64,000 nucleotides of DNA from a phage. Both the position numbers and the translations under genes were made by a program. This document shows, piece by piece, positions 37,969-40,911 of the stretch. Below the pieces are notes generated by a model. It had not been told where the DNA came from and searched no databases. It saw nothing but the letters and a program-made list of their open reading frames with translations. Each line of letters opens with the position of its first letter. Positions within the stretch are counted from its first letter, which is position 1. The DNA lies in the sequence record PZ019084.1; one strand, 5' to 3'.

Positions 37969-38532
37969 TTATTTATCTAGTTTAGTTATTATAGCTTCTG
38001 CGGCAGCTTTTAGCTTAGATGCGGTGTTAATACGATTTTTAATTTCAGTATACGCATCGCCAAGAACATCAAGGCTATCAGAATAAACACTTACACTATT
38101 GCGTTCGCTATTTGAAATAGAACCTTTAGTTTTACGATCAAAATCGGTGTACACGTCTTGAAGATCACGGGCTGCCTTCTTTGCATCATCCAATGCGTCA
38201 AGAGCTTTATTCAAAGCATTAACGTATTTTTTAGTGTCAAACATATTCTTAGAAATTTTAACAGGTGCGCGTTCAGGAGTAGCTAATGCAGATTTAGGAA
38301 CCTGAGCGCCAGATGCCAATTTCTTAGAAATTTTGAAAAACGCTTTATTGAATTTATTTTCTTGACTCATCGTAAAAGAACTATTATCGATGTTGTACAT
38401 TTCAATAGCTTTAGCTTTCCACTTAAGAAAATTGCCGCGGTCTTTTGGGTCCAAGTGGAAGAATACTTTAGTAAGATCTGCTTCAGATGGTAATTTTGCT
38501 GCTTCGGTTAAAAATTCGGCATAGGTTTTCAT
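37969..38532 (-). CDS. Candidate capsid-targeted internal protein (CTS-like N-terminus)
   Basis: 187 aa; N-terminus MKTYAEFLTEAAK resembles the CTS of ipII/ipIII; lysine/alanine-rich. Confidence 0.5.
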   Translation of the reverse strand: MKTYAEFLTEAAKLPSEADLTKVFFHLDPKDRGNFLKWKAKAIEMYNIDNSSFTMSQENKFNKAFFKISKKLASGAQVPKSALATPERAPVKISKNMFDTKKYVNALNKALDALDDAKKAARDLQDVYTDFDRKTKGSISNSERNSVSVYSDSLDVLGDAYTEIKNRINTASKLKAAAEAIITKLDK

Positions 38533-38627
38533 TTAAAATCCTTGAAATAATTTATCAGTTGGTTATTAATTATTTATTACTTTGTTATTATCCGTAACAG
38601 CATTCTCTATGTGATTCAAACTAAAAA

Positions 38628-38650
38628 GCCCCAACCTTTCGGTCGGGGCT
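38628..38650 (-). terminator. Hairpin plus U-run (intrinsic terminator)
   Basis: Minus strand agccccgaccgaaaggttggggcTTTTTag. Confidence 0.6.
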
Positions 38651-38657
38651 AAGAATG

Positions 38658-39131
38658 TTATTTGATTTGTTTAGCAGACCAAATGCGGTCTTTAATAATT
38701 TTTTGGATGTCTTCAACATACTCAAGAGAGTGAACATGTGGATTATCTTTGAAACTATAAGCACGGGCTAACTTTTGGCCTTCGGTTTTGATTACTAAAA
38801 GCTCTTTAAGGATAGCTTCATATTTAGCGATAATTCCTTTAACGATATTTTTTTCTTGTGCAGCTTTAGGATCTGCTTTAGGAGCAGGTTTACCCGAAGC
38901 CTTTGCAAAAGCAGCACCAGTAGCAACTAAACTTTTCCAGGCCATACTAACCGCATTTCCCGTAAATCCTTCTGCTTTCATGTCGCGAGCAAATTGGAAT
39001 CGTGATTCGTCAGAAGCATCTTTATAGGAATATTTACCCGCTGCAATGGCTGCTTTTGCGACAGCTTGAATTTCGGTGCTAGATGCTTCATTTAACACCG
39101 CTTCATTTAAAAATTGAGCATATGATTTCAT
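38658..39131 (-). CDS. Candidate capsid-targeted internal protein (CTS-like N-terminus)
   Basis: 157 aa; N-terminus MKSYAQFLNEAVLNEA resembles the CTS; late promoter TATAAATA 40 nt upstream. Confidence 0.5.
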   Translation of the reverse strand: MKSYAQFLNEAVLNEASSTEIQAVAKAAIAAGKYSYKDASDESRFQFARDMKAEGFTGNAVSMAWKSLVATGAAFAKASGKPAPKADPKAAQEKNIVKGIIAKYEAILKELLVIKTEGQKLARAYSFKDNPHVHSLEYVEDIQKIIKDRIWSAKQIK

Positions 39132-39171
39132 CTTATTTCCTGTTTTAATTCGTAGATTTAATATACTACTA

Positions 39172-39179
39172 TATTTATA
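39172..39179 (-). promoter_or_regulatory. Late promoter (TATAAATA)
   Basis: Plus strand tatttata = TATAAATA on coding strand, between terminator hairpin and ORF 38658-39131. Confidence 0.6.
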
Positions 39180-39186
39180 CTAAAAA

Positions 39187-39208
39187 GCCCCGACCTTTCG
39201 GTCGGGGC
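39187..39208 (-). terminator. Hairpin plus U-run (intrinsic terminator)
   Basis: Minus strand gccccgaccgaaaggtcggggcTTTTTa, downstream of the stable-RNA/tRNA region. Confidence 0.6.
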
Positions 39209-39258
39209 TAAGCCTTGCGGCAACCTTGTCGGGGTTCCACCTGCTAAGGCAAGTGTTT

Positions 39259-39420
39259 GTACGAAACGCCGGGATTCGAACCCGGTTATTAAGCAGTTGA
39301 CGCTACTCAATATTTTTAAAAGGCCATATCTCGACCATATCCGAACGTTCCGTCAAAAACGCTACTCGGCTTACGGCAAAGATATTTCCTCGAATCGATA
39401 ATTCTGTGCGCCGTTTCTGC
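39259..39420 (-). ncRNA. Candidate stable RNA with tRNA-like 3-prime domain (T4 species 1/2-like)
   Basis: Minus strand contains ACCGGGTTCGAATCCCGG (T-arm-like) followed by CGTTTCG pairing with AGAAACG about 150 nt upstream; too long for a tRNA, no ORF. Confidence 0.35.
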
Positions 39421-39426
39421 TGTGAT

Positions 39427-39475
39427 GTAAGGGGACATTAACAGATCGTAAAGATTTGTTAATGCCAGTCCTTAC
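39427..39475 (-). ncRNA. Extended imperfect hairpin, possible second small stable RNA
   Basis: Nested inverted repeats gtaagg/ccttac and cattaaca/tgttaatg in a non-coding stretch upstream of the tRNA-like RNA. Confidence 0.3.
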
Positions 39476-39520
39476 CCAGGGAACATCAGTCCGACGACTT
39501 ACCGGTAGCGACCCGGTTTC

Positions 39521-39871
39521 TTAATATTCTTTTAAAGCATTAATCTGTTCACGACGTTTACGCCATAAATCAATTACTTCATACGCAGATTCAGCATTTC
39601 GAATTGGACGGCATTTATATAAAGACTTATGATTTTGATATTGTGTAGATAACGGAATTTTATCTAAAAGGTCTTTACGTTCAAAGTATTCGTAACCATC
39701 TAAGCCAAATGAACGATTTTTGAGAAATTGCCAATGACCAAATTCGTTTTGAATATAAATATAATCCGCGTGTTGATAAAGTAAATTAATTTCACGAAAT
39801 GAGATATGTTTTTCATATTCATTGAAGTAAAATGTTAAATCATGAACTACTAAATAAACATTACCTTTCAT
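39521..39871 (-). CDS. Hypothetical protein embedded in the tRNA/stable-RNA region
   Basis: 116 aa ORF between tRNA-Arg and the stable-RNA region; no recognisable motif. Confidence 0.4.
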   Translation of the reverse strand: MKGNVYLVVHDLTFYFNEYEKHISFREINLLYQHADYIYIQNEFGHWQFLKNRSFGLDGYEYFERKDLLDKIPLSTQYQNHKSLYKCRPIRNAESAYEVIDLWRKRREQINALKEY

Positions 39872-39889
39872 ATTTTCCTCACTTATAAT

Positions 39890-39965
39890 TGGTCGAGGCA
39901 GTAGGGATCGAACCTACGACCTAGGACTTAGAAGGTCCTTGCTCTTCCTTCTGAGCTATGCCCCG
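39890..39965 (-). tRNA. tRNA-Arg (anticodon TCT)
   Basis: Minus strand folds as cloverleaf: acceptor CGGGGCA/TGCCTCG, anticodon loop CTTCTAA, T-arm GGTTCGATCC, CCA encoded. Confidence 0.8.
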
Positions 39966-40046
39966 TAATTGGGGTGACCGATGGGAGTCGAACCCATGAC
40001 TACGAGAATCACAATCTCGAGTTCTACCAACTGAACTACGGCCACA
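39966..40046 (-). tRNA. tRNA-His (anticodon GTG)
   Basis: Acceptor GTGGCCG/CGGTCAC, D-arm GTTCAGTTGGTAGAAC, anticodon loop TTGTGAT, T-arm GGGTTCGACTCCC, CCA encoded; no encoded G-1. The tRNA itself is approximately 39971-40046. Confidence 0.6.
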
Positions 40047-40159
40047 TTAATACCTACTCCAACAATCAAGATGTCTTCACACGAAATTAAGAGAAGAGTG
40101 ATCAGTTCAACCCCTATAATCGCGTCAAGTAGATATTAATGTGACAGTTGTCACAAATT

Positions 40160-40234
40160 TGGCGGACGTGATAGGATTCGAACCTATAACCAATCGCTTA
40201 ACAGGCGATCGCTCTGCCATTGAGCTACACATCC
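40160..40234 (-). tRNA. tRNA-Asn (anticodon GTT)
   Basis: Acceptor GGATGTG/CACGTCC, anticodon stem ATCGC/GCGAT with loop CTGTTAA, T-arm AGGTTCGAATCCT, CCA encoded. Confidence 0.7.
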
Positions 40235-40238
40235 AAAT

Positions 40239-40325
40239 TGGTGGGGAGTGATGGAGTCGAACCACCCGAGTCGCAATGACAATGGATTTACAGTCCACAC
40301 CGCTACCTCTACGGGATAACTCCCC
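40239..40325 (-). tRNA. tRNA-Tyr (anticodon GTA), long variable arm
   Basis: Acceptor GGGGAGT/ACTCCCC, anticodon loop CTGTAAA, long variable arm, T-arm GGTGGTTCGACTCCATC, CCA encoded. Confidence 0.65.
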
Positions 40326-40338
40326 TTAATTCTTAATT

Positions 40339-40413
40339 TGGTGGCCCTGGGTGGAATTGAACCACCATCTGGCGATTATGAGTCGCTTGCTTGAACCTTC
40401 CAGCTACAGGGCC
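40339..40413 (-). tRNA. tRNA with CAT anticodon (Ile, as in T4, or Met)
   Basis: Acceptor GGCCCTG/CAGGGCC, anticodon loop CTCATAA, T-arm GGTGGTTCAATTCCACC, CCA encoded; position matches T4 tRNA-Ile. Confidence 0.65.
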
Positions 40414-40414
40414 T

Positions 40415-40490
40415 TGGTGCTGATTGACGGAATCGAACCGCCGACCTTCTCATTACAAGTGAGTTGCTCTACCTACTGAGCTAAATCAGC
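40415..40490 (-). tRNA. tRNA-Thr (anticodon TGT)
   Basis: Acceptor GCTGATT/AATCAGC, D-arm GCTCAGTAGGTAGAGC, anticodon loop CTTGTAA, T-arm GGCGGTTCGATTCCGTC, CCA encoded. Confidence 0.8.
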
Positions 40491-40495
40491 AAAAC

Positions 40496-40585
40496 TGGCG
40501 GAGGCGATAGGATTTGAACCTATGAGTCGCCGGAGCGACTGCCGGTTTTCAAGACCGGTGCATTAAACCACTCTGCCACGCCTCC
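40496..40585 (-). tRNA. tRNA-Ser (anticodon TGA), long variable arm
   Basis: Acceptor GGAGGCG/CGCCTCC, anticodon stem CCGGT/ACCGG with loop CTTGAAA, long variable arm, T-arm AGGTTCAAATCCT. Confidence 0.8.
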
Positions 40586-40587
40586 AG

Positions 40588-40661
40588 TCTCCATACAAGG
40601 ATTTGAACCTTGGACCTCCTGATCCCAAATCAGGCGCTCTACCAAACTGAGCTACACGGAG
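40588..40661 (-). tRNA. tRNA-Pro (anticodon TGG), CCA not encoded
   Basis: Acceptor CTCCGTG/TATGGAG, anticodon stem CCTGA/TCAGG with loop TTTGGGA, T-arm AAGGTTCAAATCCTT. Confidence 0.75.
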
Positions 40662-40671
40662 TAAATTAAAT

Positions 40672-40745
<74 letters not shown>

Positions 40746-40750
40746 AAATT

Positions 40751-40837
40751 TGGTGCGAGAAGTGGGACTCGAACCCACAAGGAAATCATTCCGCAGCATT
40801 TTAAGTGCTGTGCCTTTACCAATTTGACCATTCTCGC
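40751..40837 (-). tRNA. tRNA-Leu (anticodon TAA), long variable arm
   Basis: Acceptor GCGAGAA/TTCTCGC, anticodon loop CTTAAAA, long variable arm, T-arm GGGTTCGAGTCCC, CCA encoded. Confidence 0.8.
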
Positions 40838-40838
40838 G

Positions 40839-40911
40839 CTGGGAATAAAGGACTTGAACCTTTGCATCCTGGAATCAAAATCCAGTGCCTTACCAACTTG
40901 GCTAATTCCCA
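40839..40911 (-). tRNA. tRNA-Gln (anticodon TTG), CCA not encoded
   Basis: Acceptor TGGGAAT/ATTCCCA, anticodon stem CTGGA/TCCAG with loop TTTTGAT, T-arm AAGGTTCAAGTCCTT. Confidence 0.75.

What the first reader, a model, noticed from the sequence alone, without database searches (positions are those of the whole stretch)
39211..39520. Non-coding structured RNA region with a tRNA-like 3-prime domain next to the tRNA cluster
About 300 nt without an ORF contains a T-arm-like GGGTTCGAATCCC with a flanking acceptor-like helix whose partner strand lies about 150 nt upstream, plus a separate long imperfect hairpin (39427-39475). This resembles the stable species 1/species 2 RNAs of T4, which are co-transcribed and processed with the tRNAs and whose functions remain poorly defined.
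Basis: partly seen in the sequence, partly recalled or inferred. Interest (0 to 1): 0.45.

Follow-up and report, generated by a model that had tools for sequence, protein, structure and literature searches.

The report
Orthologues of T4 rnaC and rnaD
This stretch holds a T4-like phage's copies of two small stable RNAs (species 1 and species 2) that have been known since the 1970s; one is a tRNA look-alike cut out by the cell's tRNA-processing enzymes, and what either RNA does is still unknown.

Summary
The window is a Tequatrovirus. On the minus strand, 39524-39405 is the orthologue of T4 rnaD (species 2 RNA) and 39398-39260 is the orthologue of T4 rnaC (species 1 RNA, 137/139 identical). A conserved 3' trailer (39259-39211) and the operon's intrinsic terminator (39209-39186) follow. 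So the feature is already known, and its function is still unknown in papers up to 2025.

New here, from 17 rnaC homologues in several T4-like genera:
- rnaC is a four-way-junction tRNA mimic: a 7-bp acceptor-like stem stacked on a T arm, a long arm and a 10-bp hairpin. 24 of 41 pairs show compensatory changes.
- The apex loop of the long arm (UUGACG) kisses the hairpin loop (CGUCAA). This is kept in 17/17 sequences, with two compensatory switches.
- rnaC sits in tRNA arrays like a tRNA gene and is precisely absent from some Dhakavirus genomes.
It also occurs in an rV5-like phage.

Neither RNA matches any Rfam family. I favour tRNA-mimic or decoy roles, but that is inference.

The parts
39405..39524 (-). 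rnaD orthologue (T4 species 2 RNA), about 120 nt. The 5' end is inferred by alignment to T4. It overlaps the stop codon of the upstream ORF.
   Evidence: Alignment to the T4 annotated rnaD. Fold z-score -3.7.
39501..39517 (-). rnaD 5' hairpin: ACCGG-GUCGCUA-CCGGU.
   Evidence: Folds. The closing pair changes from A-U to G-C in L084 and L085. W70 has a different hairpin at the same place.
39409..39496 (-). rnaD conserved core. The closing stem is CGUCG (39496-39492) with CGGCG (39413-39409). The inner helix is UGUU (39485-39482) with AGCA (39421-39418). The invariant loop strands are GGACUGA/GAAA and CCCUG (39481-39477)/CAC (39424-39422).
   Evidence: Core alignment A3 has 97% of cells paired against 29-60% when slid, and 4 of 9 pairs with compensatory change. 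The core is identical in a Vequintavirinae phage.
It is hypervariable between close relatives.
   Evidence: Only 7 of 53 alignment columns are invariant among 10 Tequatrovirus/Dhakavirus loci, against 125 of 139 for rnaC. At least three unrelated hairpin sequences occur.
39399..39404 (-). 6-nt spacer GAAUUA between rnaD and rnaC.
   Evidence: T4 has AAAUUA here.
39260..39398 (-). rnaC orthologue (T4 species 1 RNA), 139 nt. It is a tRNA-shaped four-way junction.
   Evidence: 137/139 identical to T4 rnaC. Covariance model R1 scores it 150.9 bits, against at most 23.5 bits for any non-member. Consensus structure.
39391..39397 (-). rnaC acceptor-like stem, 5' strand CGAUUCG. It pairs with 39268-39262.
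   Evidence: The third pair is A-U in Tequatrovirus and G-C elsewhere. The two central U.U mismatches are replaced by U-A and C-G in phage TG1.
39321..39390 (-). rnaC long arm, in the place of a D arm. Its apex loop nucleotides UUGACG lie at 39356-39351.
   Evidence: 13 of the arm's 20 pairs (helices 2-5) show compensatory change.
39351..39356 (-). Kissing-loop strand 1, UUGACG. It pairs with CGUCAA at 39302-39297.
   Evidence: 6 of 6 pairs are standard in 17/17 sequences. The compensatory forms are UUGAUG/CAUCAA (TG1) and UUGGCG/CGCCAA (Klebsiella phage EI clade).
39287..39312 (-). rnaC 10-bp hairpin next to the T arm. Its conserved 6-nt loop CGUCAA (39302-39297) is kissing-loop strand 2.
   Evidence: 8 of the 9 modelled pairs show compensatory change.
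39269..39285 (-). rnaC T arm: CCGGG-UUCGAAU-CCCGG.
   Evidence: Sequence. 2 of 5 pairs are compensatory. The loop is T-loop-like in 15/17 sequences and is UGCAUGC in the two CIP9-lineage rows.
39260..39268 (-). rnaC acceptor-like stem, 3' strand CGUUUCG (39268-39262), plus the 3' overhang UA (39261-39260). The genomic continuation is CAA.
   Evidence: The equivalent position reads U-CCA-A in the Klebsiella phage EI clade.
39211..39259 (-). Conserved 3' trailer of the tRNA operon, with three small hairpins and the single-stranded stretch GGUGGAACCCCGAC. It is not part of the mature T4 species 1 or 2 RNAs.
   Evidence: Conserved in Tequatrovirus and Dhakavirus, where it directly follows rnaD when rnaC is absent. 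Absent after rnaD in L066 and W70. Fold.
39186..39209 (-). Intrinsic terminator of the tRNA/rnaD/rnaC transcription unit, followed by a U tract (39185-39181).
   Evidence: Terminator scan finds a 10-bp stem, 8 of the pairs G-C, then TTTTT. PMC2330249 states that the T4 transcript ends after the species I gene.
39521..39871 (-). Context: a 116-aa ORF of unknown function lies between tRNA-Arg (39890-39965) and rnaD. T4 has no such ORF; there rnaD abuts tRNA-Arg.
   Evidence: It matches phrog_3355, of unknown function. The same arrangement occurs in G4507 and in T2L-type clusters (PMC2330249).

Best explanation
The region encodes this Tequatrovirus's orthologues of T4 rnaD (species 2 RNA, 39524-39405) and rnaC (species 1 RNA, 39398-39260). 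The 3' trailer and intrinsic terminator of the tRNA operon follow.

Shown here:
- Both RNAs lie on the same strand as the 11 tRNA genes and upstream of a single terminator.
- rnaC folds into a tRNA-shaped four-way junction. A 7-bp acceptor-like stem formed by its two ends stacks on a 5-bp T arm. The other two arms are locked together by a 6-bp loop-loop kiss (UUGACG with CGUCAA).
- rnaD is a small 5' hairpin plus a long stem. The stem has invariant internal loops and a hypervariable tip.

Inferred from the anatomy and from T4 literature:
- The RNAs are transcribed as the tail of the polycistronic tRNA precursor.
- The acceptor/T-arm module makes rnaC a substrate for host RNase P at its 5' end and for tRNA 3'-trimming exonucleases. 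It is therefore released and stabilised like a tRNA.
- Excision of rnaC also defines the 3' side of rnaD and frees the trailer.

Function is inference only; I put each reading at roughly 0.3:
- rnaC acts as a tRNA mimic that occupies or diverts a tRNA-binding host or phage factor, rather than decoding. It has no anticodon loop, and its 'anticodon-side' arms are tied up in the kiss.
- rnaD presents its conserved internal loops to a protein, while its variable tip tunes a host-specific interaction.
For: Identity:
- The T4 annotation of rnaC and rnaD and the alignments. 809 phage records carry the region.

Transcription unit:
- The tRNAs are on the minus strand and the terminator is at 39209-39186.
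- In T4, a ~1.75-kb primary transcript is presumed to be the precursor of the eight tRNAs and of species I and II RNAs and to end after the species I gene (PMC2330249).
- RNAC and RNAD are detected in T4 infection and confirmed by Northern blot (PMC9697503).

rnaC structure:
- RNAalifold and pair counts on 17 sequences from Tequatrovirus, Tegunavirus, Kanagawavirus, Karamvirus and Marfavirus genomes give 94% of cells paired against 38-50% when slid. 24 of 41 pairs have compensatory changes, and 0 of 500 shuffles reach this.
- The kissing loop is paired in 17/17 sequences, with two compensatory switches.
- The single-sequence minimum-energy fold gives the same cloverleaf.

tRNA-like handling of rnaC:
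- In other genera rnaC sits inside tRNA arrays, with tRNA-like spacers on both sides (PS49, TG1, CIP9, EI).
- ARAGORN even calls the G4507 copy a 'tRNA-Lys'.
- The 3' end reads U-NCA-A, and is a genuine U-CCA in the EI clade.

rnaD:
- The core helices covary.
- The core is identical in an unrelated Vequintavirinae phage, directly after a tRNA-Met.
- The tip is hypervariable.
- A convergent adaptive SNP arose in rnaD in all three BW1 lines evolved on a semi-permissive host. By my mapping of the published coordinates it falls inside this tip (PMC12685909).
Against: - No transcript, end-mapping or processing data exist for this phage. RNase P cleavage at the rnaC 5' end is recalled from the older T4 literature and was not checked here.
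- In this window an ORF replaces the tRNA that abuts rnaD in T4, so the rnaD 5' end must be made differently and is unknown.
- The annotated T4 rnaC starts one nucleotide before the acceptor-like stem, which is unusual for an RNase P product.
- The T-loop is lost in the CIP9 lineage (UGCAUGC), so T-loop recognition cannot be essential everywhere.
- rnaC is absent from some Dhakavirus genomes. From memory of the older literature, the T4 tRNA-region deletions grow on laboratory hosts. Any function is therefore conditional.
- Nothing here identifies a binding partner. The region has no sequence similarity to any E. coli genome.
Confidence: 0.85

Rival explanations
1. The two RNAs are by-products without a function of their own. 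They would be relics of tRNA genes, or structured spacers whose only role is in cis: giving RNase P and RNase E entry points and protecting the 3' end of the tRNA precursor from exonucleases.
For: - They lie at the 3' end of the tRNA operon, just before the terminator.
- rnaC is dispensable in some Dhakavirus genomes, which lack it precisely.
- rnaD occurs without rnaC or the trailer in L066 and W70.
- No function has been found in 50 years (PMC3014915; PMC12685909).
Against: - A mere spacer would not keep 125 of 139 rnaC columns invariant within Tequatrovirus/Dhakavirus.
- It would not keep a long-range kissing loop through compensatory changes across genera.
- It would not keep the unpaired rnaD strands (CCCUG, CAC, GGCGCA) invariant across two phage families.
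- rnaC keeps its architecture when it sits in the middle of tRNA arrays, where no 3'-end protection is needed.
- Convergent selection on rnaD has been reported.
Confidence: 0.2
2. rnaD and/or the released 3' trailer act as base-pairing regulatory RNAs or RNA sponges. The closest analogue is the 3' external transcribed spacer of the E. coli glyW-cysT-leuZ tRNA operon. The variable rnaD tip, or the single-stranded GGUGGAACCCCGAC of the trailer, would serve as the seed, and the terminator hairpin plus U tail as an Hfq handle.
For: - The trailer has the layout of a 3'-derived sRNA: small hairpins, a conserved single-stranded stretch, then a terminator with a U tract. It is conserved in Tequatrovirus and Dhakavirus even where rnaC is missing.
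- The rnaD tip is hypervariable and is the site of an adaptive SNP, as expected for a specificity element.
Against: - No target was identified.
- The region shows no similarity or extended complementarity to E. coli genomes at blastn sensitivity (searches both strands).
- The rnaD tip is predicted to be almost fully base-paired, which is unlike a seed.
- The trailer is absent from other rnaD-bearing phages.
Confidence: 0.15
3. The region is protein-coding. Many GenBank records annotate one to four 'hypothetical proteins' over it.
For: Mechanical ORFs of 40 and 50 aa exist on the minus strand. 'Hypothetical protein' features lie under the match in many records.
Against: - The 40-aa ORF is absent in G4507, L078, L084, L085 and L075 and is truncated in T4.
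- Substitutions are compensatory for RNA helices.
- T4 and RB27 annotate the region as RNA genes.
Confidence: 0.02
4. The RNAs are diverged members of another described RNA class: a true tRNA, tmRNA, a Y-RNA-like tRNA mimic (YrlA), a miniature RNase P RNA, or a hammerhead ribozyme (rnaD contains CUGAUG ... GAAAC).
For: - The T arm and acceptor-like stem.
- ARAGORN calls a 94-nt 'tRNA-Lys' in the G4507 copy.
- By eye, AAGUCGUC / GAACCCCGAC resembles the P4 strands of RNase P RNA as I recall them, and CUGAUG...GAAA resembles a hammerhead core.
Against: - ARAGORN finds no tRNA or tmRNA here.
- Rfam gives no hit at gathering score. With E up to 10, the only hit is a tRNA-Sec match of 16.6 bits against a threshold of 47.
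- There are no Rfam hits on the contiguous Dhakavirus version or on Kanagawavirus and Marfavirus loci.
- The ARAGORN acceptor pairing (ACGGAAC/GUUUCGU) is not conserved in CIP9, TG1 or EI (checked by hand on the sequences).
- The hammerhead reading lacks A9 and stem I, and its G8/A9 positions lie in a helix supported by covariation.
Confidence: 0.02

Closest known systems
Bacteriophage T4 rnaC (species 1 RNA; T4s001, NC_000866 70908-71046)
   Same: 137/139 identical. It has the same position (after rnaD, before the operon terminator), the same strand as the tRNAs and the same ends. The window copy is an orthologue.
   Different: Two substitutions only. One of them (A to G in the 10-bp hairpin) turns a U-A pair into U.G.
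Bacteriophage T4 rnaD (species 2 RNA; T4s002, NC_000866 71053-71171)
   Same: The 5' hairpin, the core strands and the length (about 120 nt) are the same, apart from one extra G in T4's 5' core strand.
   Different: The apical hairpin differs at many positions. In T4 rnaD starts 2 nt after tRNA-Arg, whereas here a 116-aa ORF (39521-39871) lies between them, so 5'-end formation must differ.
Canonical tRNA, especially class II tRNAs with a long variable arm
   Same: A 7-bp acceptor-type stem formed by the two ends, directly followed by a 5-bp T stem with a UUCGAAU loop. A four-way junction. Placement in tRNA arrays with tRNA-like spacers. A 3' end reading U-NCA.
   Different: No anticodon loop and no D arm. 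The stem contains tandem U.U mismatches. The length is 139 nt. The two remaining arms kiss each other. There is no ARAGORN or Rfam tRNA hit. The model R1 scores real tRNA-Ser at only 16.5 bits.
Bacterial Y-RNA-like YrlA (Rfam RF02553) and the tRNA-like domain of tmRNA: non-decoding RNAs that mimic the acceptor/T-arm half of tRNA
   Same: What it works like: a stable non-coding RNA that carries a tRNA-like acceptor/T-arm module, and so is presumably handled by tRNA-processing and tRNA-modifying enzymes.
   Different: There is no sequence or covariance-model match and no tmRNA call. There is no Ro-binding stem and no reading frame. The kissing-loop architecture is specific to rnaC.
3' external transcribed spacer of the E. 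coli glyW-cysT-leuZ tRNA operon (an sRNA sponge; recalled from the literature)
   Same: A functional RNA could be released from the 3' end of a polycistronic tRNA precursor, ending in the operon terminator. This matches the position of the trailer at 39259-39181.
   Different: No homology and no known partner. This is an analogy only.

Membership tests
T4 rnaC (species 1 RNA) | Sequence orthology to the annotated T4 gene | tested here: met
   137/139 identical over the full length. R1 scores it 150.9 bits and T4 152.0 bits.
T4 rnaC (species 1 RNA) | Position: last RNA gene of the tRNA cluster, on the same strand, followed by the operon terminator | tested here: met
   PMC2330249.
T4 rnaC (species 1 RNA) | tRNA-like acceptor/T-arm module formed by the 5' and 3' ends | tested here: met
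   Covariation. The single-sequence fold agrees.
T4 rnaC (species 1 RNA) | Accumulates as a stable ~140-nt RNA whose 5' end is made by RNase P | not testable with these tools
   Northern evidence exists for T4 only (PMC9697503). RNase P dependence is recalled from the older literature.
T4 rnaD (species 2 RNA) | Sequence orthology to the annotated T4 gene | tested here: met
   116 aligned positions. The 5' hairpin and both core strands match apart from one extra G in T4. The apical hairpin has diverged.
T4 rnaD (species 2 RNA) | Position between tRNA-Arg and rnaC | tested here: met
   The order tRNA-Arg, rnaD, rnaC is kept, but a 116-aa ORF is inserted between tRNA-Arg and rnaD.
T4 rnaD (species 2 RNA) | Accumulates as a stable ~120-nt RNA | not testable with these tools
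   RNAD is reported as a late RNA in T4 (PMC9697503).
Canonical tRNA (Rfam RF00005) | Cloverleaf with a D arm and a 7-nt anticodon loop, scoring above the model threshold | tested here: not met
   No ARAGORN call. No RF00005 hit, even at E up to 10. The only related hit is tRNA-Sec at 16.6 bits against a threshold of 47.
tmRNA | tRNA-like domain plus a tag reading frame | tested here: not met
   ARAGORN finds no tmRNA and there is no Rfam hit.
YrlA / Y-RNA-like (RF02553) | Match to the family model (tRNA-like domain plus Ro-binding stem) | tested here: not met
   There is no hit in 39211-39524. The only window hit, 17.7 bits against a threshold of 69, lies on tRNA-His/tRNA-Arg.
RNase P RNA | Match to any RNase P model (conserved regions, P4 pseudoknot) | tested here: not met
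   No hit at E up to 10 on the window or on the contiguous Dhakavirus form, and none at E up to 5 on the Kanagawavirus and Marfavirus loci.
Hammerhead ribozyme | CUGANGA and GAAA cores flanking stem II, three stems around a cleavage site | tested here: not met
   rnaD has CUGAUGU (no A9) and no stem I. The G8/A9 positions lie in a helix with covariation. There is no Rfam hit.

The most novel reading that the evidence does not exclude
rnaC and rnaD are not T4 curiosities. They are two independent, horizontally mobile non-coding RNA cassettes that travel with phage tRNA arrays. rnaC occurs in several T4-like genera, including Marfavirus. rnaD is also found in a Vequintavirinae phage. On this reading they act in trans as decoys for host factors that recognise tRNA or RNA, for example tRNA-targeting defence nucleases, 3'-end-modifying toxins or processing enzymes. 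rnaC would present a tRNA acceptor/T-arm face on a rigid, kissing-loop-locked body that cannot be decoded or cut in an anticodon loop. The hypervariable tip of rnaD would be a host-specificity determinant under diversifying selection. Neither RNA is represented in Rfam.
Probability: 0.2. Interest if true: 0.7.

Novelty: already known. Interest (0 to 1): 0.33.

Why it matters
As a finding, it is a re-discovery of two RNA genes annotated in the T4 reference genome.

The open question behind it is old: what the species 1 and 2 RNAs do has been unknown for about 50 years. The comparative results here make that question easier to attack:
- A covariation-backed structure for rnaC, with a specific kissing loop that can be broken and restored.
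- A defined invariant core and a variable tip in rnaD.
- Natural genomes that lack rnaC precisely.
- Evidence that both RNAs move between phage lineages as cassettes next to tRNA genes.

Tried and rejected
1. Rfam at gathering thresholds on the whole window, and at E up to 10 on 38900-40200, gave only the tRNAs and noise. The same was true for the contiguous Dhakavirus form and for four other loci.
2. The pairing GAAACG (39414-39409) with CGUUUC, about 150 nt apart, appears in the whole-region minimum-energy fold. I rejected it because rnaC homologues elsewhere are preceded by a tRNA, and because the 39397-39391 stem covaries.
3. The RNase P RNA resemblance (AAGUC.. / GAACCCCGAC) came from eye and memory only. 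No model supports it.
4. The hammerhead reading of CUGAUG...GAAAC was rejected on core positions and covariation.
5. The idea that rnaD and the trailer form one RNA, with GUUCCCUG pairing with CAGGUGGAAC, could not be tested because both strands are invariant where they co-occur. It is weakened by rnaD occurring without the trailer in L066 and W70.
6. Host mimicry at the sequence level: blastn against 5,426 E. coli genomes gave no match.
7. A genome-contig scan for CGGTTCGAGGA-N(100-130)-GGCGTTCCGT gave 44 hits in GC-rich, unrelated taxa. All scored at most 17 bits with model R1, so they are chance matches.
8. My first viral contigs pattern was mis-designed and missed Tequatrovirus.
9. The ARAGORN 'tRNA-Lys' in G4507 depends on an alternative acceptor pairing that is not conserved in other genera.
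10. Small-ORF coding was rejected.
11. Literature searches for a described function found none. The older T4 RNA-processing papers are not in the searchable library.
Full report
**What the window is**

The 801 bases around the finding match 762 phage records. The best matches are 97.8% identical, almost all are Tequatrovirus, and the hosts are Escherichia, Shigella and Yersinia. ARAGORN and Rfam find 11 tRNA genes on the minus strand at 39890-40911, in the order Gln, Leu, Gly, Pro, Ser, Thr, Met, Tyr, Asn, His, Arg. This is the 'T2L-type' tRNA region, which has no segB, carries extra tRNAs and has two ORFs (PMC2330249). The finding (39211-39520) lies just downstream on the same strand, so everything below is read on the minus strand.

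**Identity**

The T4 reference record annotates, downstream of tRNA-Arg, misc_RNA rnaD ('species 2 RNA', 119 nt) and then rnaC ('species 1 RNA', 139 nt). Aligning that T4 stretch with the window gives near-identity from the start of rnaD to the terminator.
- rnaC maps to 39398-39260 with 137/139 identical.
- rnaD maps to about 39524-39405, with differences concentrated in one hairpin.
- After rnaC comes a conserved 49-nt trailer (39259-39211), then an intrinsic terminator (39209-39186) with a U tract.

One difference from T4 is context. In T4, rnaD starts two bases after tRNA-Arg. Here a 116-aa ORF of unknown function (39521-39871, phrog_3355) lies between them, and its stop codon overlaps the inferred rnaD 5' end. 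G4507 has the same arrangement.

**The observation itself**

- The T arm is CCGGG-UUCGAAU-CCCGG at 39285-39269.
- The acceptor-like 3' strand CGUUUCG (39268-39262) follows it directly.
- The 5' partner of the acceptor-like stem is CGAUUCG at 39397-39391, about 129 nt upstream.
- The whole-region fold instead pairs GAAACG at 39414-39409, about 150 nt upstream.
- Folding energies are well below shuffled controls: z = -6.5 for the region, -4.6 for rnaC, -3.7 for rnaD and -5.0 for trailer plus terminator.

**What is known**

- A 2022 transcriptome study classifies both as late RNAs 'of yet unknown functions' and confirms expression with a Northern blot that used an RNAC probe (PMC9697503).
- A 2008 paper describes a presumed ~1.75-kb primary transcript that is the precursor of the eight T4 tRNAs and of species I and II RNAs and ends after the species I gene (PMC2330249).
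- A 2025 evolution study found one SNP shared by all three lines of the T4-like phage BW1 evolved on the semi-permissive host ECOR34. It lies in rnaD, and the function was still called unknown (PMC12685909).
- From my own memory of the older T4 literature, not checked here: species 1 RNA was sequenced in 1975, its 5' end is made by RNase P from a dimeric precursor with species 2, and deletions of the whole tRNA region grow on laboratory strains.
- No Rfam family matches either RNA.

**Structure of rnaC**

I collected homologues from the phage collection and from viral contigs. They come from Tequatrovirus, Tegunavirus (TG1), Kanagawavirus (CIP9, Kosakonia 305), Karamvirus (PS49), Marfavirus (Klebsiella phage EI) and uncultured T4-like contigs. 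An alignment of 17 distinct sequences gives a consensus four-way junction made of:
- a 7-bp stem between nucleotides 2-8 and 131-137;
- a long arm of about 70 nt in the place of a D arm;
- an A-rich linker;
- a 10-bp hairpin with a conserved 6-nt loop, CGUCAA;
- one nucleotide, then a 5-bp T stem with a 7-nt loop;
- a 2-nt 3' overhang.

Pair counts support this structure. 94.1% of cells are standard pairs against 38-50% when partners are slid. 24 of 41 pairs have changes on both sides, and no shuffle out of 500 reaches the observed values.

In the acceptor-like stem, the third pair is A-U in Tequatrovirus and G-C elsewhere. Two central U.U mismatches are kept in 16/17 sequences and become U-A and C-G in TG1. 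rnaC folded alone gives the same cloverleaf.

**A kissing loop in rnaC**

The apex loop of the long arm contains UUGACG (39356-39351). This is complementary to the hairpin loop CGUCAA (39302-39297). All six pairs are standard in all 17 sequences. The two positions that vary do so together: UUGAUG/CAUCAA in TG1 and UUGGCG/CGCCAA in the Klebsiella phage EI clade. I take this as a real tertiary contact that ties the two non-acceptor arms together. I found no mention of it in the papers I could search, but the 1970s-80s papers are not in that library.

**rnaC behaves like a tRNA gene**

- In PS49 it sits between two tRNAs. In TG1 it is followed by tRNA-Trp. In CIP9 and EI it directly follows a tRNA. 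The spacers are a few bases long, as between tRNAs.
- After the acceptor-like stem the sequence reads U-ACA-A (Tequatrovirus, Kanagawavirus), U-UCA-A (TG1) or U-CCA-A (EI clade), that is, a discriminator-like U and a CCA-like triplet.
- ARAGORN calls the 3' two-thirds of the G4507 copy a 94-nt 'tRNA-Lys', which explains that annotation in several records. The call uses an alternative acceptor pairing that is not conserved in other genera.
- Some Dhakavirus genomes (IME08, L083, L087) lack rnaC precisely: rnaD runs straight into the trailer (…GGCGCACC|GAACACUUGCC…). Others (L075, L078) have it.
- A covariance model built from the alignment scores all members at 129 bits or more and everything else at 23.5 bits or less. 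The window has one copy.
- The 44 bacterial and archaeal matches to a strict end-motif pattern are chance matches.

**Structure of rnaD**

rnaD has four parts:
- a 5' hairpin (39517-39501);
- a closing stem, CGUCG/CGGCG;
- an inner helix, UGUU/AGCA;
- an apical hairpin (39475-39427).

On a core alignment of 17 sequences the two helices are 97% paired, against 29-60% when slid, and 4 of 9 pairs have compensatory changes. The inner-helix register I propose is better supported than the alternative register in the minimum-energy fold. The variable position next to GAAAC covaries with the first base of UGUU (U-A, A-U, G-C) and not with the constant U that the minimum-energy fold pairs it with.

The unpaired strands CCCUG, CAC and the CA of GGCGCA are invariant across genera. 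The internal-loop strands GGACUGA/GAAA are conserved within Tequatrovirus, Dhakavirus and W70.

The apical hairpin is the opposite. Among 10 Tequatrovirus/Dhakavirus loci only 7 of 53 columns are invariant, against 125 of 139 for rnaC. At least three unrelated hairpin sequences occur, and they are shuffled between backbones. By my mapping of the published coordinates (position 164264 in 164080-164336, reverse strand), the BW1 adaptive SNP lies about 41 nt from the rnaD 3' end, which is inside this hairpin.

rnaD also occurs alone, without rnaC or the trailer, in a 170-kb T4-like genome (L066). It also occurs directly after tRNA-Met in the Vequintavirinae phage W70. There the core is identical to the window, but the 5' hairpin and the tip are different. 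rnaC and rnaD are therefore separate modules.

**How it most likely works**

Shown: both RNAs are on the tRNA strand, upstream of one terminator, with conserved structures.

Inferred:
- They are made as the 3' part of the tRNA precursor.
- The acceptor/T-arm stack of rnaC (7 + 5 bp) is what RNase P and the 3' trimming enzymes recognise, so rnaC is cut out and stabilised like a tRNA.
- This cut also separates rnaD from the trailer.

For function I commit to a tRNA-mimic or decoy role for rnaC. It offers the acceptor/T-arm face of a tRNA. It has no anticodon loop, and its other arms are locked by the kiss, so it can bind tRNA-recognising factors without being decoded or cleaved in an anticodon loop. 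For rnaD I favour a protein-binding core with a host-specific tip. I put these functional readings at about 0.3 each.

The main rival is that both RNAs are processing or stability elements with no trans role (0.2). The trailer, or rnaD, acting as a base-pairing RNA or sponge comes next (0.15). Coding ORFs, and membership of tRNA, tmRNA, YrlA, RNase P or hammerhead families, were tested and rejected. The region has no similarity to any of 5,426 E. coli genomes.

**Verdict**

The feature is real and correctly interpreted, and it is already known as a pair of genes, so the finding itself is ordinary. It keeps some interest because the function is a 50-year-old open question and because the comparative anatomy derived here gives direct experimental handles:
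- the four-way junction with a kissing loop;
- cassette-like mobility;
- the natural rnaC-minus genomes;
- the invariant rnaD core with a hypervariable tip.

Noticed in passing
window 40046-40159 (minus strand): The 114-nt non-coding spacer between tRNA-Asn and tRNA-His is predicted to be strongly structured (-32.7 kcal/mol, z = -4.4, 0 of 200 shuffles as good). It could be a third processed RNA of this T2L-type tRNA cluster. No Rfam hit.
   Followed up: partly
window 39186-39209 and 38627-38650 (minus strand); ORFs 38658-39131 and 37969-38532: Almost the same terminator hairpin (AGCCCCGACCGAAAGGT[C/T]GGGGCT plus a T run) occurs twice. One copy follows rnaC and the other follows the next ORF. 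The two downstream ORFs (157 and 187 aa) are paralogues of the same unknown-function family, phrog_2280.
   Followed up: partly
window 39890-40911: Compared with T4, the tRNA set has extra Met, Tyr, Asn and His genes, lacks T4's tRNA-Ile, and has no segB homing endonuclease gene. This is the T2L-type cluster described in PMC2330249.
   Followed up: partly
L011 1374-1467 (Escherichia phage G4507) and other GenBank records: rnaC is mis-annotated as 'tRNA-Lys(ttt)' or 'tRNA-OTHER' in some Tequatrovirus records, and as one to four 'hypothetical proteins' in many others. ARAGORN reproduces the tRNA-Lys call on the G4507 copy, which has a one-base deletion in the A-rich linker.
   Followed up: yes
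L003 1265-1425 and 1655-1785 (Enterobacter phage CIP9); L005 700-940 and 1630-1760 (Kosakonia phage 305): Kanagawavirus tRNA regions contain further long unannotated non-coding stretches between tRNAs. One is a ~160-nt element flanked by the complementary strands CAGUCCAGAGAG and CUCUCUGGAC. Another is a ~125-nt tRNA-like element with an acceptor-like stem (UGAUUUGU...ACAAAUCA), a T arm and a large insertion. Neither matches Rfam.
   Followed up: no
L089 1316-1400 (Escherichia phage W70, Vequintavirinae): Another ~85-nt tRNA-like element (GCGCGGG...CCCGCGC stem, GAAGG-UUCGAGU-CCUUC T arm) is not called by ARAGORN. Similar sequences occur in a jumbo phage, in Klebsiella and Serratia phages, and in phage REP8, where it is annotated 'tRNA-OTHER'.
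   Followed up: no
L089 1495-1585 (Escherichia phage W70): An rnaD homologue lies right after tRNA-Met in an rV5-like phage. Its core is identical to Tequatrovirus, but its 5' hairpin and tip are different. This implies horizontal transfer of the cassette between phage families. Only 6 records carry this arrangement.
   Followed up: partly
L002 1495-1700 (IME08), L083, L087 versus L075, L078: rnaC shows a presence/absence polymorphism within Dhakavirus-type genomes. The boundaries are precise (about 147 nt between ...GCGCAC[C/A]GAA and ACACUUGCC), with short GAA/CAA microhomology at the junction.
   Followed up: yes
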